IMG/VR virus record: IMGVR_UViG_2531839202_000008
Coordinates: 4,798 to 68,797 of that record
Direction: 5' to 3' (one strand)
Source: a virus
Taxonomy: Duplodnaviria > Heunggongvirae > Uroviricota > Caudoviricetes
DNA length: 64,000 bases
This document shows positions 24,808-55,597 of this stretch, piece after piece. Below the pieces are notes generated by a model. The model ran no database searches. It worked only from the letters and a program-made list of their open reading frames with translations, and was not told where the DNA came from. Both the position numbers and the translations under genes were made by a program. How positions within the stretch are numbered: the stretch's first letter is position 1; every line of letters begins with the position of its first letter.

Positions 24808-24931
24808 GCACTAAACGTTATCAACACGCATGACACAGTGCAACACTTTGTTACGCGTTGACATGCCAATAATCATATAGGCGGCGTTTCACCCCTTGAC
24901 GCACTTGTAAGTCAATGACTTAATTACATCC
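24808..24931. promoter_or_regulatory. Divergent early promoter/operator region
   Basis: AT-rich; TTGACG-18 nt-TTAATT ending about 7 nt before the ATG at 24932 (leaderless); 15-bp perfect palindrome TAAGTCAaTGACTTA at 24908..24922. Confidence 0.4.
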
Positions 24932-25132
24932 ATGTCATCCCCAACCCGTGAGCTGATCGAGATTCAGCTCGGCGCGACCAAGCGGAAGTCGTTGACCGGC
25001 CTGGTGCGCCAGGGCCGACAGGCTGGCCACGGTTGGCGCAAGATCGCAGATGCCGTCTCCCGTGAGTCTGGAATCCCGGTGTCGCACACCACAATTGCGC
25101 GTTGGTTCGAGAATGAGGCGGTGACCTCATGA
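24932..25132 (+). CDS. Cro-like HTH DNA-binding protein
   Basis: 66 aa; IPVSHTTIARWF helix; divergent from repressor. Confidence 0.55.
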   Translation: MSSPTRELIEIQLGATKRKSLTGLVRQGRQAGHGWRKIADAVSRESGIPVSHTTIARWFENEAVTS

Positions 25133-25620
25133 GCGCCCTGTCTCACCCCGCCGACGAGCGCCGCATACGCGAGATCGTCCGCGATGAGCTAGCCGCGCAA
25201 GCTGCCCGCACGGCCTCGTTCGCACTGGCAGAGGACTACGCCCCGGTCATCTATCTACCGGCCGTTATCAATCGGCGGCCCGACGAGCAGCACGGGGATT
25301 GCGGGACCAATCAGGAAGAGGTTCCGAACGGTCGCACCGGAACCGGCGTCGGTGAATCCCAGATCGACCACGTTGACGGTTCCGTTTCTTGCCGCACGTA
25401 TGGCCGCCGAGACACCCTTGGCCTGCTCGGGCAGAAGCTCAATCGCCTGGCCCGCGTAGTGCAGAACGTGCGTCGGCTCGCCACCAATCTCAATGCTGTC
25501 CATAGTTCTCCCTCGTCGGCTGGTAGCACGAGGGTACGAGGGGTGGGTGGCCCCGCTACCACGGCCACCCACCCCGAATGGAAGCCACGCGGAACCGGCT
25601 CGGTCGGCGGTGCCGAATGA
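25129..25620 (+). CDS. Hypothetical early protein
   Basis: ATGA coupling at both ends (25129 and 25617). Confidence 0.45.
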   Translation: MSALSHPADERRIREIVRDELAAQAARTASFALAEDYAPVIYLPAVINRRPDEQHGDCGTNQEEVPNGRTGTGVGESQIDHVDGSVSCRTYGRRDTLGLLGQKLNRLARVVQNVRRLATNLNAVHSSPSSAGSTRVRGVGGPATTATHPEWKPRGTGSVGGAE

Positions 25621-26429
25621 GCGCCGTTGAGCTGTTCACCTACGCGAACTCCCAGAGCGTCCGCGTCGTGCGGGGTCCCGAGGATCAGCCGTGGTTCGTG
25701 CTGGCCGACCTCTGCCGGGTACTCGATATTGCGAACGTGGGGAACGTCCTCGCCAGGCTCTCCGACGCTGATAAGAGTTCAATCCGCCTGACGGATGGAA
25801 CCGCAGGGAACCCCAACAAGGCCATCGTGTCCGAGCCGGGTATGTACGAGGTCGTCATCCGTTCGGACAAGCCCGAGGCGGCGAAGTTCCGGCGTTGGAT
25901 CACAACCGAAGTACTCCCCGCTATCCGTAAGACGGGCACGTATAGCCGCTACCCTGCACAGCCCACCGAGTTGCCCTCCAAGCGCCAGCTTGCCCAGATG
26001 GTGATCGATGCCGAGGACCGCGCCGAGGCCGAGACCCGTGCTCGCGTTGAGGCTGAGTCGCGTGCCAAGGAGTTGGCCATTCCGGCGTCGGCGTGGTCGC
26101 ACATGGCTGACTCGACCGGCGACTACGCGGTAGACGACGCTGCCAAGGTTCTCTCGCGCGATCCTGCGATCAACATCGGTCGGGGCCGGTTGTTCTCATT
26201 CATGGCCGCCGAGGGGTGGATCTTCCGCGACAAATCCACCAGCCGGTGGAAGGCCTATCAGACACAAGTCGATACCGGCCGTCTGGTCGAAAAGCTCGGC
26301 TCGCCCTACCTGCATGAGCCGACCGGCGAAATGAAGCTGCCCGCGCCCACTATCCGGATCACCGCCAAGGGTCTAGCGGAGCTGCATAAGCGGCTGGGCG
26401 GGGCCGAGCAACTGCCCCTACTCGCATAG
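25617..26429 (+). CDS. Antirepressor (Bro-N / KilA-C type)
   Basis: N-terminal FTYANSQSVRVV..PWFVLADLCRVLDI Bro-N-like; C-terminal antirepressor-like. Confidence 0.65.
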   Translation: MSAVELFTYANSQSVRVVRGPEDQPWFVLADLCRVLDIANVGNVLARLSDADKSSIRLTDGTAGNPNKAIVSEPGMYEVVIRSDKPEAAKFRRWITTEVLPAIRKTGTYSRYPAQPTELPSKRQLAQMVIDAEDRAEAETRARVEAESRAKELAIPASAWSHMADSTGDYAVDDAAKVLSRDPAINIGRGRLFSFMAAEGWIFRDKSTSRWKAYQTQVDTGRLVEKLGSPYLHEPTGEMKLPAPTIRITAKGLAELHKRLGGAEQLPLLA

Positions 26430-26588
26430 CGAAATCTGTTTCACCACAACCGAATAGGAAAACCCCGACGGCGGGCACTCTCGCCAAAGAACCACCCACC
26501 GTCGGGGCCACTTCAACCAGCCTACAAGGAGGCCGGTCATGCCCCACCGTATCTACACCCCTGCACAGAGTGTCGGGGGTGGTGCCCG

Positions 26589-26921
26589 ATGACCATCGGA
26601 CACGTCTCGCACCAGACCCCGCACGCCAGCGTCGTCGTCTCTCTCGGCGCCATCAAGGCGGTTCGCCTCGGCACCGGCATTGACCGCGGTGTCGAGGTCG
26701 AATTCGAGGGCGGCACGCTGCTGACCCTCGCCCCGGAAGTGCTCGACGACATCATGCGCGAACGGGTACAGCAGGTCGTCGCTCAGATGGACAACTCGGG
26801 CGTCGGCGGTCCCACGGGAACGCTGATCGACGGCGCCGCCCGCCTCGGCGGGGTGCTCGGGTGCGAGCCGTGGAGAGATCCGTGGTCGGAGCAGGGCAAC
26901 CGATCGGGGGCAGCGCGATGA
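26589..26921 (+). CDS. Hypothetical protein sharing a 15-aa motif with minor tail protein
   Basis: preceded by a coupled 17-codon uORF with SD AAGGAGG (26539..26592). Confidence 0.45.
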   Translation: MTIGHVSHQTPHASVVVSLGAIKAVRLGTGIDRGVEVEFEGGTLLTLAPEVLDDIMRERVQQVVAQMDNSGVGGPTGTLIDGAARLGGVLGCEPWRDPWSEQGNRSGAAR

Positions 26922-27208
26922 CAAATATCATTATGCGCCATGCCTTTTGGACGGTCGCACTGCTGGCGTTCGTCTATGCCATCGTCGCTCTGTTCGATCA
27001 GCGCTACGCCCAATTCGCCGTCGTCATGGCTCTATTCGGTGTCGCGCTCGGCATTGATCTGTGGGTGAACCGGCGCGGCTGGTACCGCGACCGGGCAGCG
27101 GTCCTGCTGTTCATCGCCGCTCTCACCATCGGTGTTGCCGCCCTGTTCTCCGTACCCGCCGCGTACGCCGCCCTAACCACCTTCTCTCAGAACGGACTAC
27201 ACGAATGA
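26918..27208 (+). CDS. Small 3-TM membrane protein
   Basis: ATGA coupling; three hydrophobic helices. Confidence 0.45.
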   Translation: MTNIIMRHAFWTVALLAFVYAIVALFDQRYAQFAVVMALFGVALGIDLWVNRRGWYRDRAAVLLFIAALTIGVAALFSVPAAYAALTTFSQNGLHE

Positions 27209-27552
27209 ATCTGCCCGAGGCCAAGATTGCGCCCGAATCAATTCCCGCCCTGACCGACCCCTACGGCGACATCAGGGGTATCAACAACGCCGCGATCATC
27301 ATCGGTCTACAGAGCAAGCACGTCTATGCCGGGACCGTCCCCGAGGCGGTGGTACGCCAGCGGCGGGCCAAGAACCGCGCGGCGCGGCGCGCTCGGCGGG
27401 GGAACATCTCGGCCTTGCGCCGACAGGCCCGGCTCAACCGGAAGGTGCGCCGTCCTAGCCGCCGAATGCCATACGACATGGGCCACTTGATTGGTACGGC
27501 GCCGGGTGCCCCATGGCTGATCCACGAGCCGGAAGCTGGTGCGGCCGAATGA
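27205..27552 (+). CDS. Arg-rich hypothetical protein (nucleic-acid binding?)
   Basis: ATGA coupling; RRAKNRAARRARRG stretch. Confidence 0.4.
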   Translation: MNLPEAKIAPESIPALTDPYGDIRGINNAAIIIGLQSKHVYAGTVPEAVVRQRRAKNRAARRARRGNISALRRQARLNRKVRRPSRRMPYDMGHLIGTAPGAPWLIHEPEAGAAE

Positions 27553-27707
27553 ACCCCATCTACGAGCCCTACGCCAACCTCGCTGAGTTCCACGAGTCCA
27601 TCAGCTACGGCAAGCACTCCAGCGGGCGTGTCTACTGCGGCCCATCCACTCCCGGCTACACCCCACGGCACCGCGCCGAGGACAACGCCAAGGTAGGTGC
27701 GTAATGC
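27549..27707 (+). CDS. Small hypothetical protein (52 aa)
   Basis: ATGA coupling both sides. Confidence 0.3.
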
Positions 27708-28000
27708 CAGAGCCAACACGGGCATTGCTCGAAATGGTCGCCGAGGTGGCGGACAAGCTCCAAGACCTCACGGCCCAGATCGAACCGGCTTCGCCGACAT
27801 ACCACTCGGGGCGCGCTTGGAGTCCGGAAGGACTGCGTGGATACGTGACCAGGTGGACCGCTGTGCTCGATGAGCGAGACGCCCTCAAGCGGGCGCTCAC
27901 TGAGACATTGTGGGAGCTGCCCGCTGGTGCGAATCCTGATTATGCCGCCGCCGCGATCCTGCATCACTTTGACGTTAAGCCGAAGGGAGGCAAGGCATGA
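27704..28000 (+). CDS. Hypothetical protein
   Basis: TAATG coupling; 98 aa. Confidence 0.45.
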   Translation: MPEPTRALLEMVAEVADKLQDLTAQIEPASPTYHSGRAWSPEGLRGYVTRWTAVLDERDALKRALTETLWELPAGANPDYAAAAILHHFDVKPKGGKA

Positions 28001-28188
28001 CGCTCGCGTGGACCGAGAAGGTGGACGAGCTGCGTTCGCTCGGCTACCAGGACTGGGAGATTGCCAAGAAGCTCGGGAACTCGCCCGCGACGTTTCAGCG
28101 TATGGCCTTGCGGCACAACAAGGGTGTTGACGACCTCATGAACACCCTTGCGCGAGAAGAGAAACTGTCGCGGGGGTGGGTCTCGTGA
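27997..28188 (+). CDS. HTH DNA-binding protein (sigma-70 region-4-like)
   Basis: LGYQDWEIAKKLGNSPATFQRM helix-turn-helix. Confidence 0.5.
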   Translation: MTLAWTEKVDELRSLGYQDWEIAKKLGNSPATFQRMALRHNKGVDDLMNTLAREEKLSRGWVS

Positions 28189-28400
28189 AGACGCATCCGG
28201 TGGGCGTGGGCGATTGCCCCGCCGTCTTCGGCGCCTACTTCTGCACCCGCGACGACGGTCACGACGGCAGCCACATGGCGGCCGGGATCGGCGAGGTACT
28301 AGCGGTCTGGGATTCCGAGTTGGCCTGGTGCAACGGCGACCGCGAGGGCGGGCTGTGGTTCGGCAACACCGGGCGCGAGTGGGTCGAGGTCGCCGAATGA
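28185..28400 (+). CDS. Hypothetical protein
   Basis: GTGA coupling; 71 aa. Confidence 0.4.
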   Translation: MKTHPVGVGDCPAVFGAYFCTRDDGHDGSHMAAGIGEVLAVWDSELAWCNGDREGGLWFGNTGREWVEVAE

Positions 28401-29284
28401 GCGAGCAGATTCCCGCCGAAGATGGCATGTACAGCGGCATTCCCGATGAGGTCTACCACGGCGACCGCACCAGCTTGTCGTCGTCCGGAGCCCGCGCGCT
28501 GCTGGCGCCGTCGTGCCCCGAGATCTTCCGCTACGAGCAGTTACAGCCCCCGGCACCCAAACCCCAGTACGACTTTGGTCACGTGGCCCACAAGTTCGTA
28601 CTCGGCGAGGGCAGCGAGATCGCAGAGCTGGACCCGGCCATTCACGGGCTGAACAAGGATGGCTCCCCCTCCAAGGCGCCCACATCCACGGCGATGTGGC
28701 AGGAGGCCGCCGAGGCGGCACGCCAGCGCGGCCAGATCCCGATGCACATCGCCGAGGTGGCCAAGGCGCGGGCAATGGCGGCCAAGGTCCGCGAGCACCC
28801 GCTGGCCGCCGCGCTGCTGGCCGATGGGACACCGGAACTCTCCGGGTACTGGCACGACCCTGAGACCGGCGTACGGCTGCGATTCCGGCCCGACTGGCTG
28901 CCTAACCCCGGCCGGGGCCGCCTGATCGTCGTGGACTACAAGACGGCCACCAGCGCCCACCCTGGCCACTTCGCCCGCGCCGCTGCGGACTACGGATACC
29001 ACCAGCAAGTCCCCTGGTATCTCGACGGCCTGGCCGCCTGCGACATCGCCGACGATGCCGCGTTCGTGTTCATCGTCCAGTCCAAGACGCCGCCGTTCCC
29101 GGTCTCGGTCATCGAGCTCAAGCCCGACGACATCGAGCTCGGCCGGCGCCGCAACCGCAAGGCCATCGACCTGTACGCCCAATGCGTCGCCGATGACCAC
29201 TGGCCCGGCTACGGCGACCACGTGCACTCGGTATCGCTCCCCAGTTACGCCACCTACCAGCAAGAAGGAGAACTCGATCAGTGA
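28397..29284 (+). CDS. Cas4/RecB-family PD-(D/E)XK exonuclease
   Basis: IVVDYKT and FIVQSK nuclease-core motifs; paired with downstream annealase-like gene. Confidence 0.6.
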   Translation: MSEQIPAEDGMYSGIPDEVYHGDRTSLSSSGARALLAPSCPEIFRYEQLQPPAPKPQYDFGHVAHKFVLGEGSEIAELDPAIHGLNKDGSPSKAPTSTAMWQEAAEAARQRGQIPMHIAEVAKARAMAAKVREHPLAAALLADGTPELSGYWHDPETGVRLRFRPDWLPNPGRGRLIVVDYKTATSAHPGHFARAAADYGYHQQVPWYLDGLAACDIADDAAFVFIVQSKTPPFPVSVIELKPDDIELGRRRNRKAIDLYAQCVADDHWPGYGDHVHSVSLPSYATYQQEGELDQ

Positions 29285-53033: not shown

Positions 53034-53443
53034 TGACCGTCGCGCTGCATGAGCAGATGCCCCCCAACGCGATCGTGATGATGCTCGCCCACCTCGCACC
53101 GCTGGGCCCCTGCGACATCGAACGCAAGCCCGACGATCCGCTGCCGTTCCGCCAAGTCAACATGATTGACGGCACCTACGACGCAAACCTGTTCTACTGC
53201 ACCGCTGTCCTGTCGATCCACACCTTCGGCAAGACGATCACCGAGGCGCAGCGCGAGGGCATCAAGACCGATCAGCGGATCATGCGGCTCGGCGACGAGA
53301 TCGTCGATGTGCCCATGCCCGATGGCACGGCCGCCAACGTCGACTACATCGACTTTCAGCAGCTCTCCACGCTGCGCGAATACAAGGCCGACAACGCCTT
53401 TCGCTTCAAGGCGATCTGCGAGCTCGGCCTGTCGTTCAACTGA
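53033..53443 (+). CDS. Tail terminator
   Basis: TGATG coupling; synteny. Confidence 0.45.
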   Translation: MTVALHEQMPPNAIVMMLAHLAPLGPCDIERKPDDPLPFRQVNMIDGTYDANLFYCTAVLSIHTFGKTITEAQREGIKTDQRIMRLGDEIVDVPMPDGTAANVDYIDFQQLSTLREYKADNAFRFKAICELGLSFN

Positions 53444-53533
53444 TCGTCGCGGTCCCCTGATCGCGTCGCGGCATCCGCCGCACCTCAATCGCCGGAACCC
53501 TTTCCGGTTCATCACCCATGGAAGGAGCGTCAC

Positions 53534-54613
53534 ATGACGCAACCCGAAACCGGCGCTGACTGGAGCGTCGGCGGATTCACCGACACCGATAGCCGTTTCG
53601 CTATCCGAGGCCCGCTCGTTGCCGTATTAGCGCGCGACTATCGCGGCGCGGCCACTGATATCAGCCCGCATCTCTTCAACCCGCTGGCCAAGGATGGCAA
53701 GCTGCGCGCGGACCTGTTCGCCCGCCGCAAGGTCGGCGGGTACTGGGTCAACAACCCCGAGCCCAACCAGGGGTGGCTGTTCCTCGGCGCCAACACCAAG
53801 ACTGGCGGCCCCGAGCGTGAGCCGAACATTGATGTCAGCCCGCTGGAGATCTTGCAGTCGAATTACCCGATCGAGAAGGACATCACCAAGATCGAAAAGA
53901 CGGTGAAGTTCACCCCGATCGAGACCTTGAACCCTGTCGTCAAGGCCCTGCGCAATAACGTTCCGCTGCAGGATGAGGACGGCAACCTGCTCGTGGCAGA
54001 ACCGGGCCAAGGCGACTATTTCGTGGGCACCCCGCTGGAAGCCGATTTCGTTCCCCGCCAGCTGCTTTTGGTGCGCGCACGGTCCCGGGCCGGCGGCAAG
54101 CTGTACACCGTCGAACCCATCCCCCTGTGCAAGCTGACCAAGATCGGCGCGGCCAAGATGGACACGGAAGACGCCGACGCCAACGAGCTGGAGTTCTCGC
54201 TCGAACCTGACCCGTTCTTCCTGATCCCCGATCCGCGCAACCCGGGCATCCTGATTCCCGGCCTGGACGGCGAATGGGTCGGCGGCAAGGGCTGGACCAC
54301 GATTCAGGGCGCCCCCAAGGTGTCGAACACCCCGCCGACGGTCACCCCCGGTGCCGCCGGTAAGGCCTCGATCGTATTCGCCGACCCCACGGGCGCTGGC
54401 GATCCGTTCACCTTCGCCGCCGAAAGCACCGTCGATGACGGGACCACCTGGCTGCCCGCCGAGCTCGATGGGCCCGCGGTCTCGTCCGGTGGCAACACCA
54501 CGGTCAAGGTCAAGACGGTGGCAGCCGGTGCAACCAAGTTCCGCGTGAAGGTGACCGGCACCAACGGCGCTTCGGTCTACACCCCGAAGTCTGCCGCCGC
54601 GACCATCGCCTGA
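53534..54613 (+). CDS. Major tail protein with C-terminal Ig-like domain
   Basis: SD GGAAGGAG; 359 aa; C-terminal beta-rich Thr/Val/Gly repeat typical of Big_2 domains. Confidence 0.65.
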   Translation: MTQPETGADWSVGGFTDTDSRFAIRGPLVAVLARDYRGAATDISPHLFNPLAKDGKLRADLFARRKVGGYWVNNPEPNQGWLFLGANTKTGGPEREPNIDVSPLEILQSNYPIEKDITKIEKTVKFTPIETLNPVVKALRNNVPLQDEDGNLLVAEPGQGDYFVGTPLEADFVPRQLLLVRARSRAGGKLYTVEPIPLCKLTKIGAAKMDTEDADANELEFSLEPDPFFLIPDPRNPGILIPGLDGEWVGGKGWTTIQGAPKVSNTPPTVTPGAAGKASIVFADPTGAGDPFTFAAESTVDDGTTWLPAELDGPAVSSGGNTTVKVKTVAAGATKFRVKVTGTNGASVYTPKSAAATIA

Positions 54614-54620
54614 TGAACCC

Positions 54621-54658
54621 TCACCTGGCGGGCGTCGGGCTGCGCCCGCCAGGTGAGC
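54621..54658 (+). terminator. Perfect 15-bp inverted repeat CTCACCTGGCGGGCG / CGCCCGCCAGGTGAG after major tail gene
   Basis: seen in sequence; no T-tract. Confidence 0.45.
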
Positions 54659-54712
54659 CCCACCCCCATTCCAGCCCGAAACCCCAAGCCCACCAGCCCG
54701 AAAGGAACAATC

Positions 54713-55159
54713 ATGAGCTCCGAAGACACCAAGGACGTTCTACACCCCGTCGACCCCAGAAAGGCACGCGAGCAGGCCGCCGATCACCTCGGATTCATGG
54801 CAGGTGTGCCCTTTGATCTCGGCGACGGCGAGATGTGGGAGCTTCCCAACCCGGCGTTTCTCGATACCGAGCAGCGCAAGCGGTACCGCGACTACCAGCG
54901 GGACATGAAAGCCCTCGACAAGGAAACCGTCGATCATCCTTTCATCGACGGCAAGACCATCGAGCAGAACGTCTATCCGTATCTCAAGGACGGCAAGGAT
55001 TACGACCCTGACGAGCAGCTGTGCATCGCACTCATGGGTGAGGACATCTACGCCAAGTTCCTCGCCGCGGGCGGTGTTCCCGGCCAGATCGATACGCACT
55101 GGAAGGTGATGCAGCGCCAGCTGGAGGAGCGGACAAAGATCGACTCCAAAAGTAATTGA
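54713..55159 (+). CDS. Tail assembly chaperone (G form)
   Basis: SD AAAGGA; acidic 148 aa; upstream of tape measure. Confidence 0.55.
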   Translation: MSSEDTKDVLHPVDPRKAREQAADHLGFMAGVPFDLGDGEMWELPNPAFLDTEQRKRYRDYQRDMKALDKETVDHPFIDGKTIEQNVYPYLKDGKDYDPDEQLCIALMGEDIYAKFLAAGGVPGQIDTHWKVMQRQLEERTKIDSKSN

Positions 55160-55220
55160 GGCAGTAGCGCTGTGGTGCCGTTGGCCCAATGCGATCGAGG
55201 CTGATCTTCGTTTTCGCGGT

Positions 55221-55583
55221 GTGCGCATCGCTGATTGGCACCAGGGCACCCGCGATGAGCGCGGCGCCCTGGTGCTTTCCAGCCGCCAACTACTGTCGCT
55301 GATCCACCAGCTGCCCGAAGACTCAGAGTTCAAAACCCATGCGCCGCCGCCGTTTGGGCGCGACGGCGACTGGACGGTCATGCAGAAGATTGCCGCTGAG
55401 ACACACAACGAGCTCGCGGCATACCGGGCCAGCCAGTACGCGGGCACCCCGCACGAATACATGTACACCAAGTACTCATCGCCGCTGGATTCTCGCAGAC
55501 AGCACGAACTTGACTCCGCTGAAAACGAATTCATCGAGTCGGCGCGAGAAGAGTTGCTAGATGACGTGTTTGGCGACCAATGA
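55221..55583 (+). CDS. Tail assembly chaperone T segment (expressed by frameshift from G; not -1)
   Basis: no SD; frame open from 55110; overlaps the G ORF end in the +1/-2 frame. Confidence 0.4.
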   Translation: MRIADWHQGTRDERGALVLSSRQLLSLIHQLPEDSEFKTHAPPPFGRDGDWTVMQKIAAETHNELAAYRASQYAGTPHEYMYTKYSSPLDSRRQHELDSAENEFIESAREELLDDVFGDQ

Positions 55584-55597
55584 TCAGGAGGTGAACC

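What the first reader, a model, noticed from the sequence alone, without database searches (positions are those of the whole stretch)
55107..55583. Phage B chaperone pair cannot be joined by a -1 shift; needs +1 or -2
G (54713-55159) is in frame 2. The SD-less downstream ORF (55221-55583) is in frame 0, and that frame is open from 55110. The 50-nt overlap (..CGG ACA AAG ATC GAC TCC AAA AGT AAT TGA) contains CC AAA AG, but no X XXY YYZ motif lies in the -1 direction. A +1 or -2 recoding event in a tail chaperone is uncommon.
Basis: seen in the sequence. Interest (0 to 1): 0.5.

Follow-up and report, generated by a model that had tools for sequence, protein, structure and literature searches.

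The report
Known +1 frameshift in tail chaperone
The two tail-assembly chaperone reading frames of this Mycobacterium abscessus prophage are indeed joined by a forward (+1) or -2 ribosomal slip at a conserved AAA-AGT site, but the same site is already annotated this way in hundreds of related mycobacteriophages, so it is an ordinary member of a known group.

Summary
G (54713-55159) and the downstream frame (open 55110-55583) overlap by 50 nt. The downstream frame is +1 (equivalently -2) relative to G. The -1 frame stops at TAA 55153-55155.

The window here is a cluster MabC M. abscessus prophage, 100% identical over the query (54600-55700) to prophiGD43A-3. Both halves match one fused tail-assembly-chaperone profile, PHROG 978.

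All homologous pairs examined in mycobacteriophage clusters F, I, J, N and O and in the Mab prophages carry an in-frame GAY-NCN-AAA-AGT at the junction, in the same +1 arrangement. That covers 80 IMG/VR loci with 20 distinct junction contexts. Cluster E is the exception: its homologue uses -1 at C_CCA_AAC.

Among 29 distinct MabC sequences, variation between the G stop and the annotated GTG falls on T-frame third positions (4/1/17). The GTG itself is absent in 12 of the 29. Independent initiation and sequencing error are therefore very unlikely.

GenBank already joins this site as +1 in Fruitloop, Renaud18, JangDynasty, Optimus, Shweta and Tapioca. It joins it as -2 in phiGD57-1 (same cluster, identical site) and in Yeet/HokkenD.

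Best mechanism: tRNA-Lys slips +1 on A_AAA_AGU while the rare AGU codon waits in the A site. I found no experimental proof. The finding is already known and of low interest.

The parts
53534..54613 (+). Major tail protein gene, immediately upstream of the chaperone pair
   Evidence: Annotated 'major tail protein' in the 100%-identical record MW584182. ORF listed.
54700..54706 (+). Shine-Dalgarno-like GAAAGGA, 6 nt upstream of the G start codon
   Evidence: Read directly from the sequence.
54713..55159 (+). Gene G: the short tail assembly chaperone (148 aa), made by standard translation
   Evidence: PHROG 621 E=1.1e-43 and PHROG 978 positions 7-156. Annotated as tail assembly chaperone in MW584182 and OQ417974.
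55110..55159 (+). 50-nt overlap in which both the G frame and the T frame are open
   Evidence: Topen 55110, G stop 55157. Upstream of the slip site, variable columns follow the G-frame third position (1/2/6), not the T frame.
55142..55153 (+). Conserved junction context GAC TCC AAA AGT (Asp-Ser-Lys-Ser in the G frame)
   Evidence: Unique in the window, 0 of 100 shuffles. GA[CT] [TC]C[CG] AAA AGT in all 20 distinct junction contexts of 80 IMG/VR loci and in 9 of 10 GenBank representatives.
55148..55153 (+). Proposed slip site A_AAA_AGU. tRNA-Lys on AAA 55148-55150 re-pairs with AAA 55149-55151, and the 0-frame A-site codon is the rare AGT 55151-55153.
   Evidence: conservation. AAA is 14.1% of Lys codons, and AGT is 4.5% of Ser codons and the 5th rarest sense codon. 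The GenBank fused proteins of six related phages equal the K|V join at this site.
55152..55583 (+). T extension read after the shift (143 aa plus stop). The predicted G-T fusion is 54713..55150 + 55152..55583, 289 aa.
   Evidence: model; the fusion matches PHROG 978 in one stretch, residues 12-284 to profile 7-280 of 288, E=1.1e-66; invariant or near-invariant columns K1 V2 A5 W9 P13 I16 D19 L20 lie upstream of the GTG.
55153..55155 (+). TAA that closes the -1 frame directly after the site, so a -1 slip cannot reach T
   Evidence: Read from the sequence (frame 1...CTC CAA AAG TAA).
55160..55220 (+). Stretch annotated as intergenic in the exact-match records, but under T-frame coding constraint
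   Evidence: variable columns by T-frame codon position are 4/20, 1/20 and 17/21 among 29 distinct MabC sequences. There is no ATG/GTG/TTG in this frame before 55221.
55221..55223 (+). GTG used as the start of the separate 120-aa 'hypothetical protein' in some records. It is not a conserved start.
   Evidence: annotation; the codon is GTG in 17, GTA in 8, ATC in 3 and GTC in 1 of 29 distinct sequences. No SD-like sequence lies upstream.
55598..59224 (+). Tape measure protein gene, immediately downstream, with AGGAGG at 55586-55591
   Evidence: Pfam PF10145 E=4.9e-21. Annotated as tape measure protein.

Best explanation
This is the G/GT-type tail assembly chaperone pair of a cluster MabC Mycobacterium abscessus prophage. 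Most ribosomes translate G (148 aa) and stop at TGA 55157. A minority shift into the +1 frame at A_AAA_AGU (55148-55153). With tRNA-Lys in the P site on AAA 55148-55150 and the rare, slowly decoded Ser codon AGU in the A site, the tRNA slips one base forward onto the identical AAA 55149-55151. GUA 55152-55154 is then read. The product is a 289-aa G-T fusion, ...IDSK-VIEAVALWCRW.... By analogy with lambda gpG/gpGT, the G part would bind the tape measure protein and the T part would recruit the major tail protein, with the shift efficiency setting their ratio.

Shown here:
- the frame relation;
- homology of both halves to one fused family;
- family-wide conservation of the site;
- coding constraint on the T frame beginning at the site;
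- lack of a conserved start codon.

Inferred:
- that the event is ribosomal;
- that it is +1 rather than -2;
- its efficiency;
- the protein functions.
For: - **Gene position.** The pair lies between the major tail and tape measure genes.
- **Homology.** G matches PHROG 978 positions 7-156, and the T frame from 55110 matches positions 151-280. The +1 fusion matches as a single stretch at E=1.1e-66.
- **Conserved site.** GAC NCN AAA AGT with T in the +1 frame is found in the window, phiGD57-1, Island3 (I), prophiGD91-2, Renaud18 and Fruitloop (F), JangDynasty (O), Optimus (J), and Shweta and Tapioca (N). It is also in all 80 IMG/VR loci, which give 20 distinct junction contexts.
- **Disfavoured codons.** AAA is 14% of Lys codons. 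AGT is 4.5% of Ser codons and the 5th rarest sense codon. There is only one in-frame AAA-AGT in 10,438 codons.
- **Periodicity switch.** Upstream of the site, variation follows the G frame (1/2/6). Between the G stop and the GTG it follows the T frame (4/1/17).
- **No conserved start.** The GTG is missing in 12 of 29 distinct relatives, and no other start codon lies upstream of it.
- **Conserved T N-terminus.** Eight invariant or near-invariant T-domain columns lie before the GTG.
- **Re-pairing.** +1 gives perfect re-pairing, AAA to AAA. The two bases before the A-run are C[CG] in 20 of 20 contexts, so a -2 slip would keep at most 1 of 3 pairs.
- **Existing annotation.** The GenBank fused proteins of Fruitloop, Renaud18, JangDynasty, Optimus, Shweta and Tapioca equal my K|V (+1) model exactly. 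A cluster F1 genome paper reports a +1 chaperone frameshift (PMC10793310).
Against: - I found no experimental evidence for a fused product (mass spectrometry or reporter) in any member of this family (literature searches). The Corndog and Catdawg proteomics tables list only the G-type chaperone ORF under the name 'tail assembly chaperone', in the passages I read.
- The same site is annotated as -2 (K|KV) in phiGD57-1, which belongs to the same cluster and has an identical site. It is also annotated as -2 in Yeet and HokkenD, and described as -2 for cluster N phage Fulbright. The field has not settled the direction.
- AGU is normally read by the tRNA-Ser(GCU) that also reads the common AGC codon (general knowledge, not checked in this host). 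The 'hungry codon' argument therefore rests on slow wobble decoding, not on a rare tRNA.
- No stimulatory RNA structure was detected (z = 0.18 and 1.03), and there is no SD-like element next to the site. The determinant of efficiency is unknown.
- The IMG/VR sample was retrieved with the peptide pattern KV[MLI][ED]A, so AAR GTN was imposed by the search. Only the choice of AAA over AAG, the preceding A and the frame relation are independent observations.
Confidence: 0.72

Rival explanations
1. The fusion is made by a -2 ribosomal frameshift at the same A-run. After AAA is decoded, the ribosome moves back two bases and reads AAA 55149-55151 again as a second Lys. This gives a 290-aa product, ...IDSK-KVIEAV....
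For: - GenBank QPO17253.1 (phiGD57-1 gp14, same cluster, identical site) equals this model exactly.
- So do the Yeet and HokkenD fused chaperones.
- The Fulbright (cluster N) paper states a -2 frameshift.
- A -2 frameshift is cited for phage Mu in the passage on tail-gene frameshifting (PMC5009743, citing Xu et al. 2004).
Against: - tRNA-Lys would have to re-pair with CCA or CGA, keeping 1 of 3 positions, in all 20 junction contexts.
- No context has a fifth A.
- The majority annotation is +1.
- The -2 fusion scores 6 bits lower against PHROG 978, although that profile is built from annotated fusions, so the comparison is partly circular.
Confidence: 0.13
2. There is no recoding. T is a separate 120-aa protein initiated at GTG 55221, as annotated in prophiGD43A-3 and prophiCCUG48898T-1.
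For: - The exact-match records annotate it this way.
- The 120-aa ORF is a 'hypothetical protein' on hundreds of M. abscessus contigs.
Against: - There is no SD-like sequence upstream.
- The codon is GTA, ATC or GTC in 12 of 29 distinct relatives, and annotated starts vary accordingly: 120, 103, 102 and 137 aa.
- The 61 nt upstream show third-position-biased variation in the T frame, 4/1/17.
- That stretch encodes the most conserved block of the T domain across clusters.
- PHROG 978 homology starts at T-frame residue 9, not 38.
Confidence: 0.04
3. RNA polymerase slips on the A4 run, deleting one A or inserting two. A minority of mRNAs then have G and T in one frame.
For: A homopolymeric A-run lies exactly at the junction and is conserved.
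Against: Four As is much shorter than the runs known to support productive transcriptional slippage, typically 7 or more (established knowledge). The conserved element includes the following GT and not a longer A-run. Not tested directly.
Confidence: 0.03
4. A single-base sequencing or assembly error, or a decaying pseudogene, splits what is really one ORF.
For: None specific.
Against: - The same frame relation and site occur in 15 GenBank Mab prophage or phage records, in 46 MabC-like sequences of which 29 are distinct, and in other clusters.
- Both frames show purifying selection.
- phiGD57-1 is recorded with a propagation host (GD35), whereas the prophi records list the carrier strain, so it appears to be a phage grown lytically; it has the identical site.
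Confidence: 0.01

Closest known systems
Mycobacteriophage phiGD57-1 gp13/gp14 (cluster MabC, MW314852)
   Same: Same prophage cluster, 90% nucleotide identity across the region. The junction ...GAC TCC AAA AGT AAT TGA is identical, as are the 50-nt overlap and the gene order. It is already annotated as a joined, frameshifted tail assembly chaperone.
   Different: GenBank joins it as -2 (K|KV, 315 aa) and starts G at an upstream GTG. The records identical to the window leave the two ORFs unjoined.
Mycobacteriophage Fruitloop gp12/gp13 and other cluster F, J, N and O chaperones (PHROG 978 family), annotated '+1 programmed frameshift'
   Same: Homologous G and T domains. The in-frame AAA AGT lies at the same alignment position, T is in the +1 frame, and the position between the major tail and tape measure genes is the same.
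   Different: Only 33-37% identity in T. In these clusters G continues 17-18 codons past the site, against 2 codons here. Their T frame reads K-V-M, which puts GTG and ATG codons just after the site; the window lineage lacks these.
Mycobacteriophage Kostya gp20/gp21 (cluster E)
   Same: Homologous T domain (PKLLEAV... aligns with KVIEAV...), with the junction at the same Pro/Ser-Lys position.
   Different: T is in the -1 frame, and the site is a canonical X_XXY_YYZ heptamer, C_CCA_AAC.
Phage lambda gpG/gpGT
   Same: The same strategy and gene position: a short chaperone plus a frameshift-extended fusion whose ratio matters for tail assembly (PMC5009743).
   Different: Lambda uses -1 on a heptamer. 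No sequence similarity was detected (Pfam gave no hit).
Phage Mu -2 frameshift
   Same: It reaches the +1 frame in a dsDNA tailed phage; Mu is cited in the passage on tail-gene frameshifting.
   Different: The Mu event is -2. Here re-pairing at -2 is not supported by the sequence. No homology was tested.
Yeast Ty1-type +1 frameshifting (CUU_AGG_C): P-site tRNA slippage opposite a slow A-site codon (established knowledge, not tested here)
   Same: The P-site tRNA can re-pair in +1 (here perfectly), and the 0-frame A-site codon is rare (AGU). No RNA structure is needed.
   Different: Different organism, codons and tRNAs. The tRNA that normally reads AGU also reads the common AGC codon (general knowledge).
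Listeria phage PSA/A118/A500 tsh +1 frameshift and bacterial prfB
   Same: A +1 frameshift in a phage tail gene or bacterial gene, driven by P-site slippage.
   Different: Those sites pair the slip codon with a stop codon in the A site (CCC_UGA, CUU_UGA), and prfB adds an upstream SD. Here the A-site codon is a sense codon and there is no adjacent SD.

Membership tests
G/GT-type tail assembly chaperone pair with programmed frameshift (lambda paradigm) | Located between the major tail protein gene and the tape measure gene | tested here: met
   53534-54613 is the major tail protein and 55598-59224 is the tape measure protein (PF10145 E=4.9e-21).
G/GT-type tail assembly chaperone pair with programmed frameshift (lambda paradigm) | Two overlapping ORFs, the second lacking its own conserved start and ribosome-binding site | tested here: met
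   50-nt overlap. No start codon in the T frame before 55221. The GTG is lost in 12 of 29 distinct relatives, and no SD is present.
G/GT-type tail assembly chaperone pair with programmed frameshift (lambda paradigm) | Canonical -1 slippery heptamer X_XXY_YYZ linking the frames | tested here: not met
   The span is 1 mod 3, so T is +1/-2. The -1 frame stops at TAA 55153-55155.
G/GT-type tail assembly chaperone pair with programmed frameshift (lambda paradigm) | A fused GT protein is made at a low ratio and is required for tail assembly | not testable with these tools
   Needs proteomics or genetics. No published data were found for this family.
Mycobacteriophage +1-annotated chaperone family (PHROG 978; Fruitloop gp12/13 type) | Sequence homology of both halves to the fused family profile | tested here: met
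   G matches profile 7-156 and T matches profile 151-280. The fusion matches in a single stretch, 7-280 of 288, E=1.1e-66.
Mycobacteriophage +1-annotated chaperone family (PHROG 978; Fruitloop gp12/13 type) | T in the +1 frame relative to G | tested here: met
   Span mod 3 = 1 in the window and in 9 of 10 GenBank representatives. All 80 IMG/VR loci agree.
Mycobacteriophage +1-annotated chaperone family (PHROG 978; Fruitloop gp12/13 type) | In-frame AAA AGT at the G-T junction | tested here: met
   55148-55153. Present in all +1 members examined.
Mycobacteriophage +1-annotated chaperone family (PHROG 978; Fruitloop gp12/13 type) | Conserved T-domain N-terminal block K-V-[ILM]-[EDQ]-A..W...P..I..DL immediately after the site | tested here: met
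   Alignment A1: K1 A5 I16 D19 are invariant, and V2 W9 P13 L20 are at least 90% conserved.
-2 frameshifting (phage Mu / arterivirus type) | tRNA(s) can re-pair two bases upstream | tested here: not met
   The bases preceding the A-run are C[CG] in 20 of 20 contexts, so at most 1 of 3 positions would pair.
-2 frameshifting (phage Mu / arterivirus type) | The product carries one extra residue at the junction (KK here) | not testable with these tools
   Needs a junction peptide from a non-tryptic digest.
prfB / PSA-tsh type +1 frameshift | Stop codon in the A site at the shift | tested here: not met
   The A-site codon is AGT (Ser). The G stop lies 2 codons later here and 17-18 codons later in clusters F, J, N and O.
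prfB / PSA-tsh type +1 frameshift | SD-like element about 3 nt upstream of the shift codon (prfB) | tested here: not met
   The upstream contexts (aagatcgactcc, cgagccgactcg, gatgccgacccg and others) contain no GGAGG-like element.
Ty1-type +1 frameshift (P-site slip opposite a slow codon) | The P-site tRNA can re-pair in the +1 frame | tested here: met
   AAA 55148-55150 to AAA 55149-55151, identical codon.
Ty1-type +1 frameshift (P-site slip opposite a slow codon) | The 0-frame A-site codon is rare or slowly decoded | tested here: inconclusive
   AGT is 4.5% of Ser codons and the 5th rarest sense codon in this prophage. The decoding tRNA normally also reads the common AGC codon (general knowledge), and tRNA levels and decoding rates cannot be measured here.

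The most novel reading that the evidence does not exclude
A_AAA_AGU may be a genuine Ty1-like +1 slip site used by mycobacterial ribosomes, with no stop codon, no SD and no RNA structure. It is conserved across at least six mycobacteriophage lineages (F, I, J, N, O and the Mab prophages). The homologous cluster E chaperone reaches the same T domain by a -1 slip on C_CCA_AAC at the same Lys codon. If so, the direction of recoding has switched during evolution at one homologous junction. That would give a natural, compact +1 reporter for mycobacteria and would settle the inconsistent +1 versus -2 annotations now in GenBank.
Probability: 0.6. Interest if true: 0.4.

Novelty: already known. Interest (0 to 1): 0.2.

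Why it matters
The value is mostly curatorial. The GenBank records identical to this window (prophiGD43A-3, prophiGD33-1, prophiCCUG48898T-1), and the many M. abscessus genome annotations that carry the ORF, call the T ORF a separate 'hypothetical protein'. Its start codons are inconsistent (120, 103, 102 or 137 aa). It should be joined to G, as was done for phiGD57-1.

Scientifically, the family offers a compact, structure-free candidate +1 site in mycobacteria. Its direction (+1 versus -2) has apparently never been determined, and identical DNA is annotated both ways. One non-tryptic mass spectrometry experiment would settle it.

MabC phages such as phiGD57-1 appear in the M. abscessus phage-therapy literature, so correct structural-gene models have some practical value.

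Tried and rejected
- **Stimulatory RNA structure.** Folding 55154-55253 and 55090-55220 gave energies no better than shuffles (z = 0.18 and 1.03). Rejected as a detectable feature.
- **Upstream SD-like stimulator.** GGAGGAG lies about 20 nt upstream in the window but is not conserved across contexts. Rejected.
- **Stop-codon-assisted +1.** The G stop is 2 codons away here but 17-18 codons away in clusters F, J, N and O. The nearby TGA follows from the T-frame codons NTT GAN (Ile/Leu-Glu). Rejected as a family-wide feature.
- **Large protein database search with the fused model.** It returned only split G-type or T-type proteins plus one full-length hit. That hit is a eukaryote gene-model artefact, so it gave no information on the junction.
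- **Genome collection scan with the T alignment.** The viral collection scan worked but used the junction peptide itself as its pattern, which limits independence.
- **Xu et al. 2004.** Not held.
- **Literature searches.** They found statements of +1 or -2 annotation but no experimental junction data.
- **Promoter and terminator scan of 53400-55800.** Nothing relevant.
- **tRNA scan of the window.** No tRNA genes.

Full report
**Observation**

The region was read directly. G runs from ATG 54713 to TGA 55157-55159 and encodes 148 aa. The other frame has a TGA at 55107-55109 and stays open to TGA 55581-55583. Its first ATG/GTG/TTG is GTG 55221. The overlap is 50 nt.

The span 54713..55583 is 871 nt, which is 1 mod 3. 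The downstream frame is therefore +1 (equivalently -2) relative to G. The -1 frame reads ...CTC CAA AAG TAA and terminates at 55153-55155, so no -1 event can link the two ORFs.

GTG 55221 has no Shine-Dalgarno-like sequence upstream. G has GAAAGGA and the tape measure gene has AGGAGG.

**What the locus is**

The segment 54600-55700 is 100% identical to three Mycobacterium abscessus prophage records: prophiGD43A-3, prophiGD33-1 and prophiCCUG48898T-1. It is 81-99.6% identical to twelve more. prophiGD43A-3 belongs to cluster MabC (PMC8092301).

The gene order is major tail protein, G, T, tape measure protein. The tape measure protein matches PF10145.

G matches PHROG 621 and positions 7-156 of PHROG 978, a 288-position profile of fused tail assembly chaperones. 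The T frame translated from 55110 matches positions 151-280 of the same profile, starting at its residue 9. That is 29 codons upstream of the GTG. A modelled fusion matches PHROG 978 in one continuous stretch, 7-280 of 288, at E=1.1e-66.

**Comparative anatomy of the junction**

A tblastn search with the T frame found 683 phage records, nearly all mycobacteriophages. I fetched representatives of several clusters and printed the overlap in G-frame codons.

| Phage (cluster) | Junction in the G frame | Frame of T |
|---|---|---|
| Window and phiGD57-1 (MabC) | GAC TCC AAA AGT AAT TGA | +1 |
| Island3 (I), prophiGD91-2 | GAC TCC AAA AGT TCT TGA | +1 |
| Renaud18 (F) | GAC CCG AAA AGT GAT GGA | +1 |
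| Fruitloop (F), JangDynasty (O) | GAC TCG AAA AGT GAT GGA | +1 |
| Optimus (J) | GAC CCC AAA AGT GGC GGA | +1 |
| Shweta, Tapioca (N) | GAC TCG AAA AGT GAT GCA | +1 |
| Kostya (E) | C_CCA_AAC | -1 |

In every +1 case the span is 1 mod 3, and the T frame continues K-V-[ILM]-[EDQ]-A. Kostya's homologue is the only exception. It places a canonical heptamer at the homologous Pro-Lys position.

A scan of IMG/VR returned 80 loci with 20 distinct junction contexts. All have GA[CT] [TC]C[CG] AAA AGT. In all of them, the frame one base upstream is open for 151-293 codons and ends 3-18 codons after the site.

That scan used the peptide KV[MLI][ED]A as its pattern, so AAR GTN was imposed by the search. 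The independent observations are the use of AAA rather than AAG, the preceding A, and the frame relation. All three hold in 20 of 20 contexts.

**Is the T frame translated from the junction?**

The T-domain alignment across ten lineages places invariant or near-invariant columns K1, V2, A5, W9, P13, I16, D19 and L20 upstream of the position of the window's GTG.

I compared 29 distinct MabC-type sequences:

- The 61 nt between the G stop and the GTG vary at T-frame codon positions 1/2/3 in 4, 1 and 17 columns.
- The 39 nt of overlap upstream of the site vary according to the G frame (1/2/6), not the T frame (2/6/1).
- Downstream of the GTG the pattern is 34/23/82.
- The codon at the GTG position is GTG in 17 sequences, GTA in 8, ATC in 3 and GTC in 1. 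Twelve of 29 therefore have no start there.

Coding constraint thus switches from G to T at the AAA AGT site. Database entries for the stand-alone T ORF have four different lengths, 120, 103, 102 and 137 aa.

**Mechanism**

In the window's own intact CDSs (43 genes, 10,438 codons):

- AAA is 14.1% of Lys codons.
- AGT is 4.5% of Ser codons, 2.3 per thousand, and the fifth rarest sense codon.
- GTA occurs at 4.9 per thousand.
- AAA-AGT occurs in frame exactly once, here.

A +1 slip of tRNA-Lys from AAA 55148-55150 to AAA 55149-55151 preserves all three pairs. The slowly decoded AGU in the A site gives it time to happen. This resembles Ty1-type +1 frameshifting, which is established knowledge and was not tested here.

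A -2 slip would require re-pairing to CCA or CGA, and no context has a fifth A. I found no unusually stable RNA structure, no SD-like element next to the site, and no conserved stop codon in the A site.

I therefore favour +1, giving a 289-aa fusion...IDSK|VIEAVALW.... This step is inferred, not shown.

**What is already known**

- Fruitloop gp13 carries the GenBank note '+1 programmed frameshift'.
- Exact-sequence look-ups show that the deposited fused chaperones of Fruitloop, Renaud18, JangDynasty, Optimus, Shweta and Tapioca equal my K|V (+1) model.
- phiGD57-1 gp14 (QPO17253.1) equals the K|KV (-2) model. It belongs to the same MabC cluster and has the identical site. The cluster J phages Yeet and HokkenD also equal the -2 model.
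- A cluster F1 genome paper reports a +1 chaperone frameshift (PMC10793310).
- A cluster N genome paper reports -2 (PMC7975880).
- The PRFect study states that SEA-PHAGES chaperone joins include both -1 and +1 classes.
- The Atkins et al. review states that tailed phages use -1, -2 or +1 for these tail genes (PMC5009743).

The phenomenon, the family and this very site are therefore already described. What is missing is an experiment that fixes the direction. I found none.

**Verdict**

The finding is real and correctly interpreted, but it is an ordinary member of a known, well-populated group. The only local defect is annotation: the records identical to the window leave G and T unjoined. Novelty is 'already known' and interest is low. 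The modest residual question is +1 versus -2, together with the apparent switch of recoding direction between cluster E and the rest at one homologous junction.

Noticed in passing
window 1-24511 versus about 24900 onward: The window holds two different prophages almost end to end. Bases 1-24511 are 97% identical to the right part (17724-43869, the record's end) of prophiGD05-2. That part includes its tape measure, minor tail, lysis and polymorphic-toxin genes. The MabC-type prophage carrying the finding follows within a few hundred bases.
   Followed up: partly
window about 24913-28900: At a fixed offset, the first ~4 kb of the MabC prophage differ strongly from prophiGD43A-3 (431-735 mismatches per kb over the first four 1-kb blocks, 40 in the next). 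The structural genes are nearly identical. This points to a mosaic or indel-shifted left arm, so the window is not from strain GD43A itself.
   Followed up: no
window 54620-54657: A perfect 16-bp G+C-rich hairpin with a 6-nt loop (dG -35.6 kcal/mol, z = -4.3, 0 of 200 shuffles) lies between the major tail gene stop and G. It has no T-tail. It may be a transcription attenuator or an RNA stability element that sets the tail-tube to chaperone ratio. The alternative GTG start of G at 54653, used in the phiGD57-1 annotation, lies inside its 3' arm.
   Followed up: partly
L008 (Kostya, NC_011056) 1492-1513: The homologous cluster E chaperone pair reaches the same T domain (PKLLEAV...) by a -1 shift on a canonical C_CCA_AAC heptamer. 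This sits at the codon position where the other clusters have AAA AGT. Recoding direction appears to have switched at one homologous junction.
   Followed up: partly
GenBank proteins AEJ92113.1 (Optimus, 243 aa) versus QDM55614.1/QED12184.1 (Yeet, HokkenD, 244 aa); QPO17253.1 (phiGD57-1): Identical chaperone coding sequence is deposited with two different joins: +1 (K|V) and -2 (K|KV). The annotation convention for this site is inconsistent between records.
   Followed up: yes
L019 (GCA_024181965.1 contig BQXS01007634.1, 1050 nt), gene 46-1023: An NCBI protein named 'tail assembly chaperone, partial [Aduncisulcus paluster]' (a eukaryote) is 67% identical to the modelled fusion. It lacks the ~50 residues around the junction: a 978-nt gene range gives 276 aa. 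It looks like a mycobacterial prophage contaminant on which a eukaryotic gene model spliced out the frameshift region as an 'intron'.
   Followed up: partly
L006, L007, L010-L012 (clusters F, O, N), just after the AAA AGT site: In the lineages with K-V-M after the site, the T frame reads AAA GTG ATG, which puts GTG and ATG codons directly after the slip site. Internal initiation cannot be excluded there from sequence alone. The window lineage (K-V-I, GTA ATT) has no such codon.
   Followed up: no
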